Virus genome (UHGV): UHGV-0305822
From: a virus
DNA: 64,000 nt
Direction: 5' to 3' (one strand)
In this document: piece after piece, positions 13,866-54,746 of the stretch
Position numbering within the stretch: position 1 is the stretch's first letter
Layout: the number at the start of each line of letters is the position of its first letter
The notes under the pieces: model-generated
The model's database searches: none
What the model was told of the DNA's origin: nothing
What the model saw: the letters and a program-made list of their open reading frames with translations, nothing else
Translations under genes and position numbers: made by a program

Positions 13866-14417
13866 ATGTTTCCATCGTCTGAATATTTAACTCATCTGGC
13901 TTACGGTATTCGCCGTGGTTCTGTTTTCCGCACACGTTTAAAGGATATAAATTTCCTGGCTAATTTCTTATTTGATCGTTTGTGGGATGGCGATAGTGTT
14001 TACAAAAAGATCACCGTAACACAACTTTATTCCCTTATAGCAGCATCTGAAATTGTGCCTACTGATATTCGTCGATTTAAACGACAGCATAACGGGGAGG
14101 TTACAATCAGCTTTCTTGATCGTTCTCCTATTACCGTTGAAATCGACGATCGTATTGACGCTAATAGTGAAATGTCTGGTTGGAAGATTCTGTTTGATTG
14201 TGGCAATCGTTATGCGGTACTTGGTTCCTCTGATGAGCGCGACTTCCCTTTCGACAAACCTTACTACTACCTCAGTGAAGATGATTTCCCGGATAAAGAA
14301 TCTAACATCTTTTTAAACGGAGACACAGTTTACTTCATTTTTCGTACCTGGAACGATGTTGCTGCTATGATTGCTCAAGGCGTCATCGATTACCGTAAAC
14401 TAGAAGTCGACATTTAA
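13866..14417 (+). CDS. hypothetical protein
   Basis: 183-aa ORF; SD ttaggagtattaaaATG. Confidence 0.65.
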   Translation: MFPSSEYLTHLAYGIRRGSVFRTRLKDINFLANFLFDRLWDGDSVYKKITVTQLYSLIAASEIVPTDIRRFKRQHNGEVTISFLDRSPITVEIDDRIDANSEMSGWKILFDCGNRYAVLGSSDERDFPFDKPYYYLSEDDFPDKESNIFLNGDTVYFIFRTWNDVAAMIAQGVIDYRKLEVDI

Positions 14418-34800: not shown

Positions 34801-35346
34801 ATGAAACAAATACAGTTAACTGATCACGTTAATGCGTTTAAACACTTTCTGGATAACGCGGGTATAAAACCTGGCGAACAGACAGACGCATGGACTGCAC
34901 GTGTTTATGGAAGTATTGGCAAAGTCTGTGAATCCACGACAACACACGATGGGTTGTTTGTTGCTAAAGCAGTAGGTATTGCCTTGTGGGATCTTGCTGC
35001 CTTGGTTTACGTGATGAATAACGGGGATTTACGCCCCCTTGAAAAATCGTTACACCGACTACTAGCCATTAAGAAATGGAAAAACGAACATCCTGAGACA
35101 ATCGCGGTGACGTTGATGCCGGAAGCGGTACTTGCTATCAAAGCGGTGCGCAGTTGTACCGCACGCGCACAAATGGAGCGTCGACTACACCTCACGACGC
35201 TCTTTTATCAGTTGGCTAGAATTGTAAAGATGAACGGCCTAATCTTCGACCGGGTTCTACAAAACGGACGTATAAGTTGGACAGAAGAACTAAGCAGTTC
35301 TCCGTTCTATACAAAACTAAAACTTAAAGACATTTTGAAGGATTAA
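34801..35346 (+). CDS. hypothetical protein
   Basis: 181-aa ORF. Confidence 0.55.
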   Translation: MKQIQLTDHVNAFKHFLDNAGIKPGEQTDAWTARVYGSIGKVCESTTTHDGLFVAKAVGIALWDLAALVYVMNNGDLRPLEKSLHRLLAIKKWKNEHPETIAVTLMPEAVLAIKAVRSCTARAQMERRLHLTTLFYQLARIVKMNGLIFDRVLQNGRISWTEELSSSPFYTKLKLKDILKD

Positions 35347-35347
35347 C

Positions 35348-35656
35348 ATGGAAAACTATTCGGGTTGGGCAATTTCGCAGTGCATTGGTTATTCTTTACG
35401 TTCTTTAGTGCGTACACTTTATAACAAAAACTCAGGCGAAGCTATTACACCACAGTTACTGGGCAAATTGGAAGTCGAAGTTAACCACAAATTAAAGCAG
35501 TTACTCGACAGCCACGTAAGAACAATGCGTTGGGAGTTCTTGCTACGTGGTAAGAAGCCAACAATTACCGTTGTAGCAGAAGGCAGTGAAATCGTACTGC
35601 AATCCAACGCAGACCTATTTGAAATTTTAACTGAACTCGAAAAGGACAAAATCTGA
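35348..35656 (+). CDS. hypothetical protein
   Basis: 102-aa ORF. Confidence 0.5.
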   Translation: MENYSGWAISQCIGYSLRSLVRTLYNKNSGEAITPQLLGKLEVEVNHKLKQLLDSHVRTMRWEFLLRGKKPTITVVAEGSEIVLQSNADLFEILTELEKDKI

Positions 35657-35976
35657 TGGTTACGAACGACAATATCAAGAAAAAGATTGACGAAATTATA
35701 AGCGTCAGTTTAGATAGAATCGAATTAATTCCCGAAACTAAGGAGATCAAATATTACGTTCCTGCGGACGAACTATTTCCAGGTCTTCTTAGAATCTCAC
35801 CAAAAAAGGTTGAAGAGGCTAAACGACAATTCGAAGTTCGTGGCCTTAAGGTTGACATTGTTAACAAAAAACATTTCCATGTAACGTATAGCCAGGAAAA
35901 CATTATATTTAGTCCTGAACAAGCGCAACGTAATTTAGATATTTTAACGAAACGAATGGGGAATAATAACAAATGA
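35656..35976 (+). CDS. hypothetical protein
   Basis: 106-aa ORF with ATGA-type overlaps on both sides. Confidence 0.5.
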
Positions 35977-37007
35977 AACAGTATTTAGCGTTAATGCAAG
36001 ACATTCTGGATAACGGTGTTGTCAAGAAAGACCGCACAGGTGTAGGGACACTATCTGTATTTGGTCGTCAACTACGTTTTGATCTGAAAGAAGGTTTCCC
36101 ATTAGTTACTACGAAGAAGGTTCACCTGAAAAGTATCATTCATGAACTGTTGTGGTTCTTAAACGGTGACACTAACGTGAAGTACCTGCAAGAGAACGGG
36201 GTAAAAATTTGGAATGCATGGAGTGATGAAGAGGGGAACTTAGGGCCAGTTTATGGTAAACAATGGCGCGAATGGCGCGACTGTAAAGTTGTGGAGTGTC
36301 ATGACGTAAGACGTACACAACAACTAATGCAACGGGGTTACAAGTATATTGGGAATATGAAGGAAGATGGTACGACGTATTTGGTTTATGAAAAAGCACA
36401 TGACCAGATCAGCAAAGTTATCCGACAGCTTCGTGAAGACCCTGACTCCCGCCGTATTATCGTTAGCGCCTGGAATGTAAGTGACCTGGACGATATGGCA
36501 CTTAATCCATGTCACAACTACTTCCAGTTCTACACAACGGAAATGACACTGCTTGAGCGACTGGATTGGTACGAAGCAAATGAACCGGAAAAATTTGCGA
36601 ACGCGCCACTTATTAATCACGAAGATATTGATGATGAAGAACGACTTCATGAAACTTTAGATCGTGAAGGTATCCCTCGTCGTAAGCTTTCATGTTTTTA
36701 CATGATGCGGAGCAACGATGTCGCATTAGGAAAACCGTTCAACATCGCGTCATACGCTCTGCTAACTCATGTGGTTGCCCAACAAGTGAATATGGTTCCC
36801 GATGAGTTAGTTTATAGTGGGGTCGATGTGCATTTATATCTGAACCACCTCGATCAAATAAAACTCCAGTTGACACGTGAGCCGTACCCGTTACCTAAAT
36901 TGGTTATTAAACGTAAACCCGAATCTATCTTCGACTACAAATACGAGGACTTTGAAGCAGTCGGTTACCAATCACACCCACACATCGCCATGCCTGTCGC
37001 GGTGTAA
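35973..37007 (+). CDS. thyA: thymidylate synthase (ThyA family) with two in-frame insertions
   Basis: by-eye comparison with E. coli ThyA from memory: MKQYL..DRTG.GTLS.FG...[34 protein letters not shown], catalytic Cys in [40 protein letters not shown]; 344 aa versus 264 aa in E. coli. Confidence 0.85.
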
Positions 37008-38106: not shown

Positions 38107-38940
38107 ATGGGCGAACGTTTTGACATCAACACTATTTACAACATCGTGGTTAATCCTGGTCAACACCTGGAAGAAGTTAACGCACAACTGCGCGCTCTGA
38201 ATGAGAATGCAGTACAGTTCGATGCCATTTACACAATTGGTGTAAACCCTGGTACCAACCGTATTCGTGTAGAAGGTAAACGCCACACCGGTAATCAAGA
38301 ACTGGATATTGAAACGATTGTAGCGCCTATTAAGCTTACCGATGCCGTTTATAACGGTACGGTAATGCATACAGAATCTGTTCTAGTTTGCACGATCGCA
38401 AAATGTGTAAAACTCGTTAAAGGTTGGTCTAAAGAACGTGGTATTCTCGATAACGGTAAACTGGAAACCCAAATCACGAAGTTCTTTGAAGAGTTAGGTG
38501 AAATTGCGGCGGGTATCAGTAAAAACAAACCTGAACTGATCATGGATGGCATTGGTGATGCGTTGGTGGTTCTGGTAAACATCATCGAATTAGGGGATGC
38601 GTATTCTGGTCACCTTACAGTGGCAGAAGACTGCATCGAGTCTGGTCTACGCTTAAACGTGGAAGATGTAGCTGAAGTTGAAGAAAATTTAAACAACGCT
38701 GGATACCCACATCAACAATACCTTCACGCTATTGAAAGTTTTGCCACAACCTTTATGGAAGGTAAAGATCATGGTTTCGATTTCGTTAGCCTGGGTTTAG
38801 CCCATCTTGCCCGCATCGCCTTGTATTACAAACTGGATATTCGCCATTGTTTCTCTTTGGCCTGGCACGAAATCAAAGACCGTAAAGGTTATCTGAACGC
38901 CGACGGTATCTTTGTAAAAGAAGCAGACCTGGCGAAATAA
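38107..38940 (+). CDS. protein with C-terminal MazG-like nucleotide pyrophosphohydrolase domain (tentative)
   Basis: C-terminal half has FEELGEIAAG and IGDALVVLVNIIELGD, reminiscent of MazG/all-alpha NTP-PPase EExxE and DxxGD motifs; N-terminal 100 aa unassigned. Confidence 0.5.
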   Translation: MGERFDINTIYNIVVNPGQHLEEVNAQLRALNENAVQFDAIYTIGVNPGTNRIRVEGKRHTGNQELDIETIVAPIKLTDAVYNGTVMHTESVLVCTIAKCVKLVKGWSKERGILDNGKLETQITKFFEELGEIAAGISKNKPELIMDGIGDALVVLVNIIELGDAYSGHLTVAEDCIESGLRLNVEDVAEVEENLNNAGYPHQQYLHAIESFATTFMEGKDHGFDFVSLGLAHLARIALYYKLDIRHCFSLAWHEIKDRKGYLNADGIFVKEADLAK

Positions 38941-48950: not shown

Positions 48951-50570
48951 GTGAATAAACTTAATTGGGTTGACTTTTATCTGCTCAATGTAAACAAGTC
49001 TCTTGTGTCGCGATTACGACCCGTCACGACCACGGATACTTTCCAGGGGTTAACAAAAAACTTTCACCCCGAAGGTCTTTACTCTACAGAGATATTTGGA
49101 CTCACGGGGAGTGAAGCGCGAGACTCTACTTTCTCTTATATCGATATTAAACTCGATATCATTTCGCCGACGGTGTGTTTGGCGTTATTCCAACTCAAAC
49201 AACTCTACGAAGAAATTTGTTCTGGAAAACGCTACGCAACGTGGAGCGAAAAAGAAAAAGATTTCGAACCGGCCTTGCCGGGAGACCCAGGCGCAGATAC
49301 CGGTTTTAACTTCTTCCTCAGTCACTATAACGATTTAAAACCTAAGCGTAACGAGTCCCTACAACGTGACGAAACCGTGGATTTCTTTTTGAAATTCCGT
49401 CCCGTTAGTCTTAGTCGATACGTTCTCGTGTTACCCGCGGGTTTACGCGATTTAGTAATTCGACAAGATGGTAGAGAACAGGAAGAAGAAATCGGCGGGA
49501 TGTATCGTCGGTTGGTATCACTCGCCAGGGCGATCCCTGACCGAGCAACCCGTGTTGAATTAACTAACCCCGTACGCTGGAAGCTGCAACAAACCTTCAA
49601 CGATATCTGGATGTATTTCTTTAACATCCAAGACGGTAAAGGGGGTTTCCAACGTCGTAAAGTGACGTCTCGTAAATTAATGAACGGGACACGTAACGTA
49701 CTGTCCTCGTTCTCGACGGGGTCTAAGTGCATGGGTCGTGAAGACGCTATTCGTCCCACCGACACCAAAATTGGTTTATACCAGGGTTTAAAAGCATTAC
49801 TCCCCGTTGCGCAATACCAGATACGTGAACGTTACCTCGGTAACATCCGTGCTGGTGACGGCAACCTTTACGGCGTAAACACCAAAACCCTTAAACGTGA
49901 ATTCTTGGAAGTAGGTGGTCGTGTATACGACACCTTTACCACCGACGATGGGATTGAATCCTTAATCAACCGAATGGAAGCTCGCGAGCTTCGCCATCAG
50001 CCGATTATGTTGGACGACACCCACTACGTTGCGTTGGTTTACCAAGACACCAAACATTTTAAGGTGTTCTACGATATTGAAGAACTTCCTAAAACGTTTG
50101 ACCGAAAATTCGTTCACGGTATGACGCTCGTCGAATTGCTTTATTTGTCGGGCTACGAACTTTGGAACGATTATTTCGGTTTCGTTACACGTTATCCCGT
50201 TACAGGCCGAGGCTCGACGTATTCATCGACCATAAGATTGGAGACCACCACATCATCTTTATACTTAAAAGAACTGGAAGATGACTGGGAAACTGAAAAA
50301 CCCCGAGGGGCTATCAGCTACCCTGACCGGTCGGTTCCTACCTTCGTTGAGTCTATGGCACCACACCCCTCACGTCTAGGTGGCTTAGGGGGTGACTACG
50401 ACGGCGATACCGGGTCGTTTAACGCGCCCATGTCCCAGGAAGCGCTCGAGGAAAACCGGAATTGGATACACTCGAAAAACTACTGGTTCGATTCTGATGG
50501 GAACTTTAAAATCAATCCTATCAACAACGTGATTAAACGTGCAACGCAAGCGTTATTAAAGAACCCATAA
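48951..50570 (+). CDS. multisubunit RNA polymerase beta-prime-like subunit, N-terminal half including catalytic site (phage split RNAP)
   Basis: FHPEGLYSTEIFG resembles beta-prime KPERDGLFCARIFGP; VLVLPAGLRDLV resembles LPVLPPDLRPLV; GKGGFQRRKV resembles GKQGRFRQNL; DYDGD at 50394..50408 resembles NADFDGD; GTG start after aggag. Confidence 0.7.
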   Translation: MNKLNWVDFYLLNVNKSLVSRLRPVTTTDTFQGLTKNFHPEGLYSTEIFGLTGSEARDSTFSYIDIKLDIISPTVCLALFQLKQLYEEICSGKRYATWSEKEKDFEPALPGDPGADTGFNFFLSHYNDLKPKRNESLQRDETVDFFLKFRPVSLSRYVLVLPAGLRDLVIRQDGREQEEEIGGMYRRLVSLARAIPDRATRVELTNPVRWKLQQTFNDIWMYFFNIQDGKGGFQRRKVTSRKLMNGTRNVLSSFSTGSKCMGREDAIRPTDTKIGLYQGLKALLPVAQYQIRERYLGNIRAGDGNLYGVNTKTLKREFLEVGGRVYDTFTTDDGIESLINRMEARELRHQPIMLDDTHYVALVYQDTKHFKVFYDIEELPKTFDRKFVHGMTLVELLYLSGYELWNDYFGFVTRYPVTGRGSTYSSTIRLETTTSSLYLKELEDDWETEKPRGAISYPDRSVPTFVESMAPHPSRLGGLGGDYDGDTGSFNAPMSQEALEENRNWIHSKNYWFDSDGNFKINPINNVIKRATQALLKNP

Positions 50571-50579
50571 GGCTAAGCA

Positions 50580-53500
50580 ATGCTGCTCATTAAACAGTTT
50601 AACCAACGCTTCTCGGTGCGTAAAACTGACGAGTTTGGTAATCCGAGGATTATCCCGCTCGAGAAGCTACAGATACCACGTGGTTCTGTACTCCATGTCA
50701 TTGATCTCGACCAGGTGGTATTAGCGCCACCTGCAACACTCGAGATTATTCAACCGTTAGAAAAACCTGCACAGGTTCGTCACCACTTTAAATTACCGGA
50801 AGACGGTATTAGCGGCCATCCGCGCAACAAACCTGTTCAGGGCCAAGAACGTGCTATCTTTGCCTACCACCGTGCAAACCGCCCGATGCGTCGTCTTACC
50901 TCAGACGATCTGGTTCGCAAAGACTTAAAAGTTCTCCTGGTCGAGAACTACACACCAATGCTATCGCACTACTACTATCCTGACACCCAGTTAGCCTGGT
51001 ACGATAGACTGCGTAACATCCAACTGTTGATGATTAACCAGTTCAAATACGACACGCAAGAATACATGCGTCAGAACTATTTCGTTATTGAACTGGGTTC
51101 GACTCTACCTTCGTTCCAGAAGTTTCAAACAACCTATAACGACCGCGTTAAGAGCAAGATTGAGAAGTTCCAGGACTTCAACTTGCTGTGGCTATTGGAG
51201 TTGTTTGCTTGGGCTTATGGAAAACAATCCGATTCCTTATTCTCGGGAATGGATTTAACTCAGCTGTCACGAATGAACTTTATCTTCACCCACAACACGG
51301 GCTTTACGTCCATGAACATGGGTGTTGTAGAGAAAATGCGTAAGTCGTCCGGCGGTCGTTTAAGTGACGACCAAATGGCCAGGATGTTCTACCGTACGCT
51401 GGTGCGTGTAATGACACAAGCACCGTCTAACGCGTACGAAGCGGAATTCCTAACGCCTGAAGGTGACGAGCGTGTTTTCCTTAAAGACGTCGAAGAAGAA
51501 ACCGTTGATGTTGTCGACGATGACGATGTTGTTAATGACGCTGTGGTGGAATCCGATAACACCTTCGATGAAAAAGAAGACGTTGTTATTGAAGAACCGA
51601 AGGAAGACGTCAAACCGACGACCATCGTCGTCGAGAAAGTCATTCCGCACGACGAGATTATTAAACAGGAAGCACAACGCTTAGCTGAAGCGGGCCGCTT
51701 AAGTTCTAAAGCATATCAGTTCCTGTCAGAATCGTCTAAACGTTTCGTTCAGCTGCCTAACCCGTATAACCCGAAAGAAACCTACGGGGAAGCACTGACT
51801 GTTCACGAGAAAGATATCGTCGTTAAGGCCGAACCGAAAAAAGTTCAGCGGCTTGTTACCGATGAAGGGTGGGCAGAGAACGTCACCGACCAAATGGTGA
51901 AACAATACAACCAGACCATGATGACCAAAGACGTACTGGCGGCGGTCGCCAGTTCACAACGTTTGGGTCTGGCGGTTCACAACCACACGGTGGAAAAAGA
52001 AGTTTCTGTTACAGGAACTATCGAGCACCACACTTTACGTGTTCAGCCAGTCGGTGGTGAGCCAACAACAGTTCGCTTCTCTATCCCGGGCTTGACCGAG
52101 GACGGTACTTGGGTCGCTAATGGTGTCGAATACACCATGCGTCGCCAACGTGTGGACTTACCGATTCGTAAGGTTGCACCGGATACTGTCGCACTGACTA
52201 CCGCCTACGGTAAAAACTTTGTCCGTCGTAGTGATAAGGTCGCGAACGATTACGGTCGTTGGTTAACCAACGCGATTATCACACGCGCCGTTGACCCGAC
52301 AAACACCGAAGTCACCGATGCACGTTTAGCAAATGTGTTCGATCCTACGCAACATCTGCCTCGTCAGTATACGGAGATTGCACGTCGTATTGCCAGCTTT
52401 AATGCGAACGGCTATATGTGGAACTTCGACTACAAAGAAACCGTTAACTTCTTTAACGACGAGCAACTCAGAGACGCCGATGCTGCCAAACTTCTGCCAG
52501 TGGCGAAACGTCCGCGTAGTGAAACAATCCTGGCAATGGATGACAAATCCATGCTTTACGGTGTAAAAGGAAACAAAGTTGAACCGGTGGGGACTATCGC
52601 AGAGGTACTGGGCTTTAATAACCAGAAAGTGCCTCGCGAAATGACCGAGCTGTCTTTGATGGGTAAATCTTTGTCGCTTGGTTTTATCTTCTCGTTCTAT
52701 CTTGGACTCCAGGGAATGTTGAAACATTTCGGTATCCAGTACGAGTTGGTTCCTACAGGACAGCGTGTTGATAAGAATGCCTACGACAGTATTATTCGAC
52801 TACAAGACTGTAAACTTTTAGTTACTTGCGATAACGATCAGCAGAGGATGATTCTGCATGGTTTGGATCGCTATCTCAAACACCTGGTTGCTTATACCGA
52901 ATCAGAAGCAGACCGAGAAGACATTTACCTGAACTTATTACGTGAAGCAGATGGCCTAACACCACGGTACATCAACGAGCTGAAACAGATGCGGTCCGCG
53001 TTTGTTGACGACATGCACGCACGTATCCTCAGGAAAATGGGTGAGCCGGAAACCTTTATTGGCTTGCTGGAACGTTCTAACGAACTGTTACAAACCGACC
53101 ACTCTTTACCAGAGATTAACGGCGATGAAATGATGTTCTTAGGAAATCAGAGGATTGCCTACCACATCTATACTGCGATGGTCAGAGCGATGCGTAACTA
53201 CAATAACGCACCGGGCAGTAACCGTAAGTTCGAACTGACGCAAGACATGGTTTGGGGTGCTATTAACTCCGACCCGTCGGTACTTTTGGCACCAGGCGCT
53301 AACCCTATCCAGTCAATTAAAGAAAAAGACGTTATTACGATGGGGGGTACAGGTGGTCGTAATCGTAAAACGATGGTCTACCACACGCGTGAGTTCCAAC
53401 CCAGTGATATCGGGATAGTCTCGGGTAACACCGTAGATAACGGCGACGTAGGGATTACTGCTTTCGTCACCAATAACCCACGTTTTGACACCGTTGACGG

Positions 53501-54746
53501 TACTACGTTTAAGCGTGAAGAGAAAACCCCGAAACCGAGCGATACCCTTTCGTTTATTGACGGGTTAGTACCCGATACGTTAATGGACGATGCAAAACGT
53601 CAAAACTTCGTTGGGATTCAGTTAGGTTCTGCCACCAGTTGTAATGGGGCAACCACAACCCCGTATCGTACTGAACAGGAGAAATTCGTCGCTCACCGTA
53701 CTTCGGTGAAACATGCACGCGTTATTGATAAAGCAGGTAAGATTACTGGTCTGTCGAAAGACCACATTGAAATTACGTACGAAGATGGAAGTAAAGAAGC
53801 CTTTCCTCTAGGGCGCTGGTTCGGCCCCCACGAAGGTACCTTCTATCCGCACACCTTGGTAACACGCTGGAAAGCCGGTGACAAGCTCCCGGCCGGAGCA
53901 GTGATTACGTACAACGAGCAACACTTTGAACCTGATATTTACGATCCTACTCAGGTTTCCTGGAAAAACGGGGTGCTGGCCACCGTTGCTTTATTAGAAG
54001 CTGAAGAAGTTATCGAAGACTCCAACGCAATTTCTGAACGGTTCGCGAAGAAAATGGTGGGGCAGGTAACAAAGCTGAAAGAAGTGACGATTAACAGCAA
54101 CCAGATGCTTTTGGAAATCGTGAATGAGGGCGACCACGTAGACGTCGATACAATCCTATGCACGTTTACTGACGACTTGACGGGCGATATGAGTGCCTTT
54201 AGTCAGGAAGCAGCCGCAACGTTGCAAAGTTTAAGTTCGTACGCACCTCGTGCAGGGGTACGTGGTATCGTGGATAAAATCGAAGTGGTGTATCACGGTG
54301 AAACCGAAGACATGACGCCAAGCCTTGCTGAACTGGTGCGTAAATACGACAGAATTCGTCGTAAAGCCGCACTGGCAGTCGGACGCGGTGATCCGGTTTC
54401 AGGCAGTGTAAACGGCGACTACCGTGTCGAAGGTGTACCCTTGGCCTTTAACTCACTTTGTGTTCGATTCTTTATTACACACGACGTTGAGATGGCCGCT
54501 GCGGATAAGATGGTTATTGCTAACCAGCTAAAAACCACCGTACAAGAAGTCATGTACGGGGATAACAAAACAGAGGATGGTGATGACCTGGACGTGTTGT
54601 TCGGTCGTGATTCCGTCGATGCGCGTATCGTAGGTTCAATCCAACGTATCGGTACCGCGAATGCTGTAGGTGAACAAGCCGGGATTCTCATCGGGCGTAT
54701 ACTCGATGGGGAGGCTGTGCCTGATTTACCCGCGACACTTAAATAA
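50580..54746 (+). CDS. large protein, probable second RNAP subunit (beta-prime C-terminal-like or beta-like; unassigned)
   Basis: 1388-aa ORF immediately downstream of the beta-prime-N-like gene; DIGIVSGNTVDNGDVGITAF weakly resembles the beta-prime segment [22 protein letters not shown]; acidic insertion at about 51490..51630. Confidence 0.45.
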   Translation: MLLIKQFNQRFSVRKTDEFGNPRIIPLEKLQIPRGSVLHVIDLDQVVLAPPATLEIIQPLEKPAQVRHHFKLPEDGISGHPRNKPVQGQERAIFAYHRANRPMRRLTSDDLVRKDLKVLLVENYTPMLSHYYYPDTQLAWYDRLRNIQLLMINQFKYDTQEYMRQNYFVIELGSTLPSFQKFQTTYNDRVKSKIEKFQDFNLLWLLELFAWAYGKQSDSLFSGMDLTQLSRMNFIFTHNTGFTSMNMGVVEKMRKSSGGRLSDDQMARMFYRTLVRVMTQAPSNAYEAEFLTPEGDERVFLKDVEEETVDVVDDDDVVNDAVVESDNTFDEKEDVVIEEPKEDVKPTTIVVEKVIPHDEIIKQEAQRLAEAGRLSSKAYQFLSESSKRFVQLPNPYNPKETYGEALTVHEKDIVVKAEPKKVQRLVTDEGWAENVTDQMVKQYNQTMMTKDVLAAVASSQRLGLAVHNHTVEKEVSVTGTIEHHTLRVQPVGGEPTTVRFSIPGLTEDGTWVANGVEYTMRRQRVDLPIRKVAPDTVALTTAYGKNFVRRSDKVANDYGRWLTNAIITRAVDPTNTEVTDARLANVFDPTQHLPRQYTEIARRIASFNANGYMWNFDYKETVNFFNDEQLRDADAAKLLPVAKRPRSETILAMDDKSMLYGVKGNKVEPVGTIAEVLGFNNQKVPREMTELSLMGKSLSLGFIFSFYLGLQGMLKHFGIQYELVPTGQRVDKNAYDSIIRLQDCKLLVTCDNDQQRMILHGLDRYLKHLVAYTESEADREDIYLNLLREADGLTPRYINELKQMRSAFVDDMHARILRKMGEPETFIGLLERSNELLQTDHSLPEINGDEMMFLGNQRIAYHIYTAMVRAMRNYNNAPGSNRKFELTQDMVWGAINSDPSVLLAPGANPIQSIKEKDVITMGGTGGRNRKTMVYHTREFQPSDIGIVSGNTVDNGDVGITAFVTNNPRFDTVDGTTFKREEKTPKPSDTLSFIDGLVPDTLMDDAKRQNFVGIQLGSATSCNGATTTPYRTEQEKFVAHRTSVKHARVIDKAGKITGLSKDHIEITYEDGSKEAFPLGRWFGPHEGTFYPHTLVTRWKAGDKLPAGAVITYNEQHFEPDIYDPTQVSWKNGVLATVALLEAEEVIEDSNAISERFAKKMVGQVTKLKEVTINSNQMLLEIVNEGDHVDVDTILCTFTDDLTGDMSAFSQEAAATLQSLSSYAPRAGVRGIVDKIEVVYHGETEDMTPSLAELVRKYDRIRRKAALAVGRGDPVSGSVNGDYRVEGVPLAFNSLCVRFFITHDVEMAAADKMVIANQLKTTVQEVMYGDNKTEDGDDLDVLFGRDSVDARIVGSIQRIGTANAVGEQAGILIGRILDGEAVPDLPATLK

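What the first reader, a model, noticed from the sequence alone, without database searches (positions are those of the whole stretch)
35973..37007. Thymidylate synthase homolog with two in-frame insertions
The ORF matches bacterial ThyA closely in the core motifs but is about 80 aa longer. One extra segment (about 34 aa, roughly 36276..36400) follows the GKQWREW motif. The other (about 45 aa, roughly 36534..36690) follows the catalytic Cys motif PCHNYFQFY. Both are in frame and too short to be inteins. The Asn of PFNIASY is kept, consistent with a dUMP substrate rather than dCMP. ThyA-fold enzymes in some phages hydroxymethylate pyrimidines instead, so the insertions may mark altered oligomerisation, partner binding or changed chemistry.
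Basis: partly seen in the sequence, partly recalled or inferred. Interest (0 to 1): 0.5.

Follow-up and report, generated by a model that had tools for sequence, protein, structure and literature searches.

The report
Jumbo-phage thymidylate synthase with lineage-typical insertions
This is an ordinary dTMP-making thymidylate synthase of a nucleus-forming jumbo phage; its two extra segments are real, folded and inherited features of a large, mostly viral branch of the enzyme family, and nothing points to new chemistry.

Summary
ORF 35973..37007 (+) encodes a 344-aa ThyA that matches E. coli ThyA in three blocks (67% identity over 257 core residues). Two in-frame insertions interrupt it: aa 103-142 (+34) and aa 190-236 (+46).

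Neither insertion is peculiar to this gene. ThyA genes of the same length are annotated as plain "thymidylate synthase" in SPN3US, Goslar, Proteus phage 7 and many Erwinia jumbo phages. The 201phi2-1 enzyme shares both modules structurally.

Insertion 1 aligns without gaps to the solved Burkholderia thailandensis ThyA (PDB 3v8h; NCBIfam PRK13821 type). Insertion 2 is an acidic three-helix module in the hairpin after the catalytic-Cys strand. It has no PDB counterpart but occurs in about 300 phage genomes and in 109 of the 148 nearest cluster representatives. It was absent from 527 sampled cellular thyA genes.

All catalytic and specificity residues are canonical, including N177, L143 and D169. 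The closest annotated relative encodes a DHFR. This is a canonical dUMP-to-dTMP synthase, and a hydroxymethylase or other altered chemistry is not supported. The role of the insertions (partner docking or dimer stabilisation) is untested.

Low interest: a new member of a known kind. One side-note is that insertion 2 looks virus-specific and has not been described.

The parts
35973..37007 (+). thyA coding sequence, 344 aa plus stop codon. The start ATG overlaps the stop of the upstream 106-aa ORF by 4 nt (ATGA).
   Evidence: PF00303, E=1.7e-109; NCBIfam equivalog cut-offs passed; sequence at the start codon
35973..36278 (+). Core block 1, aa 1-102 (Ec 1-102). Contains R21, E58, W80, W83 and Y94.
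   Evidence: alignment; for conservation
36279..36398 (+). Insertion 1, aa 103-142. Predicted as a small alpha/beta module (strand 101-108, helix 112-120, hairpin 124-131/134-143). Homologous to the insert of Burkholderia-type ThyA.
36399..36539 (+). Core block 2, aa 143-189 (Ec 109-155). Contains R160/R161 (Ec R126/R127), L177 (Ec L143), the catalytic C180 (Ec C146, nt 36510..36512) and H181.
36540..36680 (+). Insertion 2, aa 190-236. An acidic (net charge -10) three-helix module (helices 193-203, 205-210, 222-231) set in the beta-hairpin between the catalytic-Cys strand and the LSC..RS strand. Conserved anchor residues are E195, R196, L229, D230, G233, I234 and P235 (R237, just past the end, is also conserved).
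   Evidence: no PDB counterpart; phage distribution; absent from sampled cellular thyA genes
36603..36635 (+). Variable loop at the tip of insertion 2, aa 211-221 (the 10-residue block 211-220 has mean pLDDT 74). The 339-aa variants of the same phage lineage lack aa 216-220.
36681..37004 (+). Core block 3, aa 237-344 (Ec 157-264). Contains R246, S247, D249 (Ec D169), N257 (Ec N177, nt 36741..36743), H287, Y289 and the C-terminal PVAV. Second-shell deviations from E. coli are M245 (Ec Q165), N248 (Ec C168) and K254 (Ec L174).

Best explanation
The ORF is the thymidylate synthase (ThyA, EC 2.1.1.45) of a chimallivirus-type jumbo phage. The phage resembles the proposed genus 'Bapsvirus', a relative of Seoulvirus/SPN3US.

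Proposed mechanism:
- It most likely acts as the usual homodimer.
- Cys180 attacks C6 of dUMP, methylene-tetrahydrofolate donates the carbon and the hydride, and dTMP plus dihydrofolate are released.
- Dihydrofolate is recycled by a phage-encoded DHFR, which is seen in the closest annotated relative but lies outside this window.

The two extra segments are inherited, independently occurring surface modules, not signs of new chemistry.
- Insertion 1 is the same alpha/beta module found in Burkholderia-type cellular ThyA.
- Insertion 2 is an acidic three-helix module typical of a large, apparently viral ThyA clade. It sits at the end of the interface beta-sheet far from the subunit's own catalytic Cys.

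Shown: the fold, the conservation and the canonical catalytic residues.

Inferred: that insertion 2 packs against the helix J/strand junction (Ec 193-195). Also inferred is its role as a stabilising or docking surface, for example for other nucleotide-synthesis proteins, rather than a catalytic element.
For: Family membership:
- PF00303 matches over the full length.
- The core is 67% identical to E. coli ThyA (172 of 257 residues).
- NCBIfam equivalog cut-offs are passed: NF002497 scores 389.6 against a cut-off of 327, and TIGR03284 scores 335.5 against 108.

Catalytic residues:
- E58, W80, R126, R127, L143, C146, R166, S167, D169, H207 and Y209 are present and invariant across 148 family representatives; R21, W83, Y94, H147 and N177 are present and near-invariant.
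- The published discriminating residues N177, L143 and D169 are all canonical.

Structure:
- The AF2 model has pLDDT 96.9 and pTM 0.94, with both insertions folded.
- Insertion 1 aligns without gaps to 3v8h.

Distribution:
- ThyA of the same length occurs in SPN3US, Goslar, Proteus phage 7 and Erwinia phages.
- The 201phi2-1 TS matches with TMq 0.92.
- Insertion 2 is aligned across in one piece in 301 phage records, and 109 of 148 nearest representatives carry it.
- The anchor residues of insertion 2 are conserved.

Context:
- A DHFR is annotated in the 85%-identical element NZ_CP173450.1.
- TS and DHFR co-occur across jumbo phages (PMC7824862; PMC13282480).
Against: - There are no biochemical data for any member carrying insertion 2.
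- The Bapsvirus-lineage enzyme has fixed second-shell changes next to the pyrimidine-recognition network: Q165M, C168N and L174K/L/A. SPN3US-like enzymes lack them. The changes recur in about 23 of 148 representatives, so they are probably tolerated, but a shift in specificity cannot be excluded.
- By topology, the hairpin carrying insertion 2 lies next to R126/R127, which reach into the partner subunit's active site. This rests on my own inference from the known TS architecture.
- The DHFR gene was not found inside this window.
Confidence: 0.85

Rival explanations
1. The insertions are a docking or assembly surface. Insertion 2, the acidic helical module, and possibly insertion 1, would bind other phage nucleotide-metabolism proteins (DHFR, RNR, dNMP kinase, MazG-like pyrophosphatases) to channel dTMP synthesis in the cytoplasm. 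Alternatively they would enlarge or stabilise the homodimer. This refines the best explanation rather than replacing it.
For: - Insertion 2 has conserved anchor residues but a hypervariable, indel-prone acidic tip. Its net charge is -10 here, and 83% of family members are net negative.
- It is confidently folded on the surface.
- It is widespread in phages but absent from 527 sampled cellular thyA genes and from every curated bacterial TS model.
- thyA sits between MazG-like genes.
- The lead from T4 Td, whose small insertions were proposed as contact sites in the dNTP-synthetase complex, is from memory and was not tested.
Against: - No partner was identified, and no co-variation or complex prediction could be run.
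- Insertions 1 and 2 occur independently of each other: 23 representatives have only insertion 1 and 40 have only insertion 2.
- Insertion 2 has about twice the fraction of variable sites of the core (57% against 27%), which is also compatible with a merely tolerated decoration.
Confidence: 0.3
2. Altered chemistry or substrate. The enzyme would be a dUMP or dCMP hydroxymethylase, hydroxylase or dCMP methylase that feeds a modified base into the phage DNA.
For: - ThyA-fold enzymes do this in other phages.
- The second-shell substitutions Q165M and C168N are fixed in this lineage.
- Two insertion-2-bearing metagenomic relatives carry N177D, so the clade is not chemically uniform.
Against: - N177, L143 and D169 are all canonical.
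- W80, W83, Y94, E58 and the C-terminal PVAV, which are needed for hydride transfer and active-site closure, are retained.
- TS equivalog cut-offs are passed.
- The lineage encodes a DHFR, which is needed only if dihydrofolate is produced.
Confidence: 0.04
3. The insertions are neutral, tolerated loop expansions or remnants of past mobile-element insertions, with no function.
For: - Insertion 2 is the fastest-evolving part of the protein: 39% identity to the SPN3US type against 75% for the core, 57% variable sites, and a 5-aa indel among close relatives.
- Related ThyAs tolerate insertions of 10-290 aa at the same sites.
Against: - Both insertions are predicted as well-packed folded modules with pLDDT above 95, apart from one loop.
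- Insertion 1 varies no more than the core (30% against 27%) and is conserved as far as a cellular crystal structure.
- The anchor residues of insertion 2 are kept across representatives that share under 50% identity (R196 in 96 of 109, P235 in 105 of 109).
- GC content is unremarkable.
Confidence: 0.12

Closest known systems
ThyA of Seoulvirus/SPN3US (locus SPN3US_0229), Goslar, Proteus phage 7 and Erwinia jumbo phages (Asesino, Caitlin, phiEaH2, Machina and others)
   Same: They have the same length (about 339-352 aa) and both insertions at the same positions. Overall identity is 58-64%, and the neighbourhood in SPN3US is syntenic.
   Different: Identity to the SPN3US type is 75% in the core but only 28% in insertion 1 and 39% in insertion 2. 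The window's lineage has M165/N168/K174 where SPN3US-like enzymes keep the canonical Q165/A168/V174.
Pseudomonas phage 201phi2-1 thymidylate synthase (B3FJL1, 457 aa; phiKZ-like)
   Same: It is the best match among predicted viral structures, with TMq 0.92, so both insertion modules are shared structurally. The phage belongs to the same nucleus-forming group. [quoted passage not shown]
   Different: Identity is only 34%, and the protein has about 110 additional residues.
Burkholderia thailandensis ThyA (PDB 3v8h; NCBIfam NF010393/PRK13821 type)
E. coli ThyA (for example PDB 2tsc, 1tys)
   Same: The 257 core residues are 67% identical and all catalytic residues are identical. The C-terminal 44 residues are especially alike, at 69%.
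   Different: It is 264 aa and has neither insertion. It has Q165, C168 and L174 where the window protein has M, N and K.
Lactobacillus casei / Enterococcus / Staphylococcus ThyA with the classical 50-aa small-domain insert
   Same: It is a ThyA with a large surface insertion that leaves catalysis intact.
   Different: The insert lies at a different site, between Ec W83 and Y94, which I call 'site 0'. The site follows from the numbering offset (L. casei Y146 = Ec Y94, recalled from the literature), which agrees with the +52 offset downstream of the insert (L. casei 162-186 = Ec 110-134) seen. The window protein is canonical at that site (12 residues).
T4 dCMP hydroxymethylase (gp42), CMP hydroxymethylase MilA and phage 5-hydroxy-dCMP synthases
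   Same: They share the ThyA fold and the catalytic Cys.

Membership tests
Thymidylate synthase ThyA (EC 2.1.1.45, PF00303) | Full-length match above the curated thresholds | tested here: met
   PF00303 scores 365.5 bits against a cut-off of 24.3, covering profile positions 1-266. NCBIfam equivalogs NF002497 (389.6 > 327) and TIGR03284 (335.5 > 108.35) are passed.
Thymidylate synthase ThyA (EC 2.1.1.45, PF00303) | Catalytic nucleophile Cys146 with His147, and the phosphate-binding Arg quartet R21, R126', R127', R166 | tested here: met
   C180, H181, R21, R160, R161 and R246 are present. C146 and three of the four Arg are invariant; R21 and H147 are each kept in 147 of the 148 relatives.
Thymidylate synthase ThyA (EC 2.1.1.45, PF00303) | dUMP specificity (Asn177) and a methyl rather than hydroxymethyl or hydroxyl product (hydrophobic Leu143; Asp169) | tested here: met
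   N257, L177 and D249 are present. The criteria come from PMC13326640.
Thymidylate synthase ThyA (EC 2.1.1.45, PF00303) | Folate-binding and hydride-transfer residues (E58, W80, W83, Y94, H207, Y209, hydrophobic C-terminus) | tested here: met
   All are present. The C-terminus is PVAV against PVAI in E. coli.
Thymidylate synthase ThyA (EC 2.1.1.45, PF00303) | dTMP and dihydrofolate formation; obligate homodimer | not testable with these tools
   No assay is possible. The structure tool predicts single chains and returns no coordinates.
Chimallivirus-type ThyA (SPN3US, Goslar, 201phi2-1 lineage) | Both insertion modules at Ec 102-108 and Ec 155-157, in a phage with chimallivirus hallmarks | tested here: met
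   The window also encodes split multisubunit RNAP beta subunits (48951..50570 and 50580..54746).
Burkholderia-type ThyA (NCBIfam NF010393 / PRK13821; PDB 3v8h) | The 34-aa alpha/beta insert after the helix at Ec 93-100 | tested here: met
Burkholderia-type ThyA (NCBIfam NF010393 / PRK13821; PDB 3v8h) | Whole-protein score above the equivalog cut-off | tested here: not met
   The score is 230.7 bits against a cut-off of 576. The protein shares the module but is not a member of that equivalog.
dCMP hydroxymethylase (T4 gp42 type) / CMP hydroxymethylase MilA | Asp at Ec 177 and an acidic residue at Ec 143 | tested here: not met
dUMP hydroxymethylase (SPO1 gp29 type) | Loss of water exclusion at the active-site entrance (Ec L143 replaced) | tested here: not met
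   L177 is retained and invariant in the family. No reference dUMP hydroxymethylase sequence was compared directly.
dUMP hydroxymethylase (SPO1 gp29 type) | No need for DHFR | tested here: inconclusive
   A DHFR is encoded in the closest annotated relative, which argues for dihydrofolate production, but no DHFR gene lies inside this window.
5-hydroxy-dCMP synthase (RB69 gp48 / DLP3 gp80 type) | D169N together with N177D | tested here: not met
   The protein has D249 and N257.
Intein or other mobile protein insertion | Hint/intein domain, size of at least about 130 aa, Cys/Ser/Thr junction residues | tested here: not met
   Pfam finds only PF00303. The segments are 40 and 47 aa and are predicted to pack as part of the enzyme.

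The most novel reading that the evidence does not exclude
Insertion 2 is a virus-specific acidic three-helix module in ThyA. It occurs in about 300 sequenced phages, from 74-kb podo/siphophages to 640-kb megaphages, and was not seen in sampled cellular thyA genes. In this reading it acts as a docking or regulatory surface: it would either assemble a phage dNTP-synthesis complex or act on the partner subunit's active site through the adjacent R126/R127. That would make it the first structural hallmark separating viral from cellular thymidylate synthases.
Probability: 0.2. Interest if true: 0.45.

Novelty: new member of a known kind. Interest (0 to 1): 0.2.

Why it matters
The main value is as a correction. 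The extra 80 residues should not be read as a sign of base modification. The gene can be annotated as canonical thymidylate synthase, which together with a phage DHFR makes the phage self-sufficient for dTMP.

A modest residual point is that insertion 2 appears to be an undescribed, phage-restricted module in a very well-studied drug-target enzyme. It has no solved structure. It would be a cheap target for a crystal or cryo-EM structure and for deletion analysis, for example in SPN3US, Goslar or phiKZ gp235.

Tried and rejected
- Megablast of the region against the phage collection found nothing. The lineage is known only from bacterial-assembly contigs.
- Two word-indexed protein searches returned almost only near-identical sequences from this one phage lineage. 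Diversity had to come from the 50%-cluster representative search.
- A cluster-member look-up of 10 distant representatives gave no names or organisms.
- The AFDB50 fold library was unavailable.
It was rebuilt as alignment A2.
- Model coordinates are not exposed. Distances from the insertions to the active site or the dimer interface could not be measured, and no dimer could be modelled. Instead I used group-specific residue differences, which point to contact of insertion 2 with Ec 193-195.
- Simple regex anchoring of the insertion sites was too brittle and was replaced by pairwise and multiple alignments.
- Pfam found no domain in the 200-290-aa insertions of some metagenomic relatives, so these are not recognisable inteins or homing endonucleases.
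Absence of insertion 2 from cellular ThyA rests on a sample of 527 genes, not an exhaustive search.
- Literature searches found no description of either insertion in phage ThyA.
- I first thought insertion 1 corresponded to the L. casei 50-aa insert. The numbering offsets show that insert lies at a different site (Ec 83-94).

Full report
**1. Observation**

The ORF at 35973..37007 (+) is real and encodes 344 aa. It matches the Pfam thymidylate-synthase model end to end (PF00303, E=1.7e-109).

phmmer against all PDB sequences aligns it to E. coli ThyA (264 aa) in three collinear blocks:
- query 1-102 to Ec 1-102
- query 143-189 to Ec 109-155
- query 237-344 to Ec 157-264

Identity over these 257 core positions is 67%. 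The 80 extra residues therefore lie in two in-frame segments:
- Insertion 1 is aa 103-142 (nt 36279..36398), directly after GKQWREW.
- Insertion 2 is aa 190-236 (nt 36540..36680), directly after PCHNYFQFY.

The insertions have no compositional anomaly and no intein or other Pfam domain.

**2. Whose gene is it**

The window encodes split multisubunit RNA-polymerase beta subunits, a UvsX-like recombinase, an SbcC-like nuclease and a 2374-aa tail fibre/transglycosylase protein. This is the gene set of phiKZ/SPN3US-like, nucleus-forming jumbo phages.
- There is no nucleotide-level match in the phage collection.
- Near-identical ThyA proteins (94-100%) sit on many 221-225-kb contigs from Salmonella, Shigella and E. 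coli assemblies.
- Records that are 84-85% identical are filed as 222-kb "plasmids" of E. coli and Enterobacter.
- This fits the recently proposed genus 'Bapsvirus', a Chimalliviridae group of about 220 kb found in bacterial assemblies and syntenic with Seoulvirus (PMC12768965). It also fits the "persistent virulent jumbo phages" described in bioRxiv 2024.12.31.630880.

**3. The insertions are lineage features, not peculiarities of this gene**

tblastn finds full-length, single-piece matches of essentially the same length (about 339-352 aa) in several groups, at 58-64% identity. These are SPN3US and about 20 other Seoulviruses, Goslar, Proteus phage 7 and many Erwinia jumbo phages. All are annotated simply as thymidylate synthase.
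- Insertion 2 alone retrieves only thymidylate-synthase genes of 43 jumbo-phage records, including the Ea35-70/RAY group.
- A 91-aa query spanning insertion 2 is aligned across in one piece in 301 phage records. These are Pseudomonas 74, Bacillus 73, Erwinia 64, Salmonella 26, Aeromonas 19 and Prevotella phages (15 records), plus uncultured 630-640-kb megaphages. They also include non-jumbo phages such as Delftia RG-2014 and Aeromonas HJ05.

In an exhaustive HMMER scan of 1.84 billion cluster representatives, I examined the 148 nearest full-length relatives:
- 109 carry at least 30 residues at site 2, where the canonical length is 8.
- 92 carry at least 30 residues at site 1, where the canonical length is 14.
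- 34 have a further insertion between W83 and Y94.
- The two modules occur independently: 69 have both, 23 only insertion 1, and 40 only insertion 2.

**4. Structure**

AlphaFold2 with this 148-sequence alignment gives a very confident model (pLDDT 96.9, pTM 0.94).
- Insertion 1 forms a small alpha/beta unit: strand 101-108, helix 112-120 and hairpin 124-131/134-143.
- Insertion 2 forms three helices (193-203, 205-210, 222-231) joined by the only less confident loop (the 211-220 block has mean pLDDT 74).

Insertion 1 has a solved counterpart.
- It aligns without a single gap to residues 105-184 of Burkholderia thailandensis ThyA (PDB 3v8h).
- It also has the highest query-normalised TM-score among the listed Foldseek hits (TMq 0.79).
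- The matching NCBIfam model (NF010393/PRK13821, 323 aa) covers insertion 1 in one stretch.

Insertion 2 has no counterpart in the PDB. Every curated bacterial TS model in NCBIfam breaks at that point.

Among predicted viral structures, the best match is the 201phi2-1 thymidylate synthase (TMq 0.92). Both modules are therefore shared with phiKZ-like phages.

A profile of the insertion-2 region was scanned over one genome per GTDB species. It found 527 cellular thyA genes, and the 80 best all span only 129-156 nt where an insertion-bearing gene would span about 267 nt. Together with the NCBIfam result, it suggests insertion 2 is largely viral.

**5. Constraint on the insertions**

Among 179 close relatives, the fraction of variable sites is 27% in the core, 30% in insertion 1 and 57% in insertion 2. 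The 339-aa variants lack aa 216-220, exactly in the low-confidence loop.

Against SPN3US-type ThyA, identity is 75% in the core, 28% in insertion 1 and 39% in insertion 2.

Even so, insertion 2 keeps anchor residues across the 109 representatives that carry it:
- E195 in 80
- R196 in 96
- L229 in 57
- D230 in 68
- P235 in 105
- R237 in 64

The module is acidic. Its net charge is -10 here, the family mean is -3.6, and 83% of members are net negative.

Outside the hairpin itself, the core positions that differ most between sequences with and without insertion 2 are Ec 193-195. This is the junction of the long helix and the next sheet strand. It lies at the end of the sheet opposite the subunit's own active site, and it is the likely packing surface (inference).

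From the established TS architecture, this end of the sheet also carries R126/R127, which reach into the partner subunit's active site. An effect on the dimer or on the neighbouring site therefore cannot be excluded. This is my inference from published E. coli and L. casei structures. It could not be measured, because model coordinates are not exposed and dimers cannot be predicted here.

**6. Chemistry**

All residues that define a methylating, dUMP-specific TS are present, namely R21, E58, W80, W83, Y94, R126/R127, C146, H147, R166, S167, D169, N177, H207, Y209 and the hydrophobic C-terminus. They are invariant or nearly so in the family.

A recent experimental survey of phage ThyA homologs (PMC13326640) uses three diagnostic positions:
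- N177D marks a cytosine substrate.
- L143D/E marks hydroxymethylation.
- D169N marks 5-hydroxylation.

The window protein has N, L and D at these positions.

Further evidence for canonical chemistry:
- It passes two NCBIfam thymidylate-synthase equivalog cut-offs.
- The closest annotated relative (NZ_CP173450.1) encodes a dihydrofolate reductase (97030..97566), 35% identical to E. coli FolA. This is as expected if dihydrofolate is produced. No DHFR lies in this 64-kb window.
- TS and DHFR co-occur generally in jumbo phages.
- TS-GFP fusions stay outside the phage nucleus in phiKZ-like phages.
- Knock-down of phiKZ gp235 (TS) has only a weak effect.

One caveat remains. The Bapsvirus lineage has fixed M at Ec 165 and N at Ec 168, with K/L/A at Ec 174, where SPN3US-like enzymes keep Q/A/V. 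The M/I/L165 + N168 combination recurs in about 23 of 148 representatives. It is therefore probably a tolerated, possibly compensatory variant of the network that orients N177. Its effect on specificity is untested.

**7. Verdict**

Insertion 1 belongs to a structurally solved cellular subfamily, and both belong to the chimallivirus ThyA lineage. The other half of that condition, canonical thymidine in the phage DNA, could not be tested here.

The most likely function is ordinary dTMP synthesis for phage DNA replication, in the cytoplasm and coupled to a phage DHFR. The role of the insertions is unknown. My best guess is a stabilising or docking surface (about 0.3), and a neutral decoration is less likely (about 0.1).

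This is a new member of a known kind and of low interest. The one small new point is that insertion 2 looks like an undescribed, phage-restricted module with no solved structure.

Noticed in passing
whole window; L002-L005 (NZ_CP173450.1): The window belongs to a jumbo-phage lineage that is absent from the phage collection at the nucleotide level. It is abundant as 221-225-kb contigs in Salmonella, Shigella and E. coli assemblies, and is filed as circular 222-kb 'plasmids' in E. coli 98232 and Enterobacter ludwigii. This is already described as the proposed genus 'Bapsvirus' and as persistent virulent jumbo phages (PMC12768965; bioRxiv 2024.12.31.630880).
   Followed up: yes
window 34801..35346 and 35348..35656 (+): Two adjacent ORFs (181 aa and 102 aa, in different frames, 1 nt apart) match the N- and C-terminal parts of one PHROG family (phrog_10269, 299 positions). 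SPN3US has one 290-aa gene at the corresponding position upstream of thyA. The same split is annotated in the 85%-identical relative, so it is not a sequencing error. The family is weakly MazG-like.
   Followed up: partly
window 38107..38940 (+): A 277-aa MazG-like nucleotide pyrophosphohydrolase (phrog_7855, E=7e-68; the Pfam MazG match is below threshold) lies about 1.1 kb downstream of thyA. It may be part of a small nucleotide-metabolism cluster, perhaps supplying dUMP or clearing dNTPs.
   Followed up: partly
window 36705..36734 (ThyA aa 245-254): Second-shell active-site substitutions are fixed in this lineage: Ec Q165 to M, Ec C168 to N, and Ec L174 to K/L/A. SPN3US-like enzymes lack them. 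The M/I/L165 + N168 combination recurs in about 23 of 148 family representatives, which suggests a compensated variant of the Asn177-orienting network.
   Followed up: partly
window 36873..37004 (ThyA aa 301-344); E. coli chromosomal thyA (H42-H45): The C-terminal 44 residues are unusually E. coli-like: 69% identity, against a median of 42% for other insertion-2-bearing relatives. Stretches of 56-80 nt show 82-87% nucleotide identity to chromosomal E. coli thyA. Overall, the core is closer to E. coli ThyA (66.5%) than to any insertion-bearing representative outside the lineage (at most 64%). Past recombination with host thyA is possible.
   Followed up: partly
proteins P0134, P0161, P0144, P0154, P0208, P0258, P0121, P0212 (metagenomic ThyA relatives): Some ThyA relatives of 550-590 aa carry insertions of 200-290 aa at site 1 or between W83 and Y94. 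Pfam recognises no domain in them, including no intein or endonuclease signature.
   Followed up: partly
proteins P0148, P0149 (insertion-2-bearing) and P0207: Three relatives have Asp at the Asn177 position while keeping L143 and D169. This is the signature expected of dCMP methyltransferases (making 5-methyl-dCMP) rather than thymidylate synthases.
   Followed up: no
window 35656..35976 (+): A 106-aa ORF with no family match ends in ATGA, overlapping the thyA start codon by 4 nt, which suggests translational coupling. The same arrangement is annotated in the relative NZ_CP173450.1.
   Followed up: no
L002 28603..30724; L003 11340..12155 and 13926..14285 (NZ_CP173450.1): The related 222-kb element is annotated with two adjacent radical SAM proteins, a DNA adenine methylase and an XRE-family regulator. 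These were not examined.
   Followed up: no
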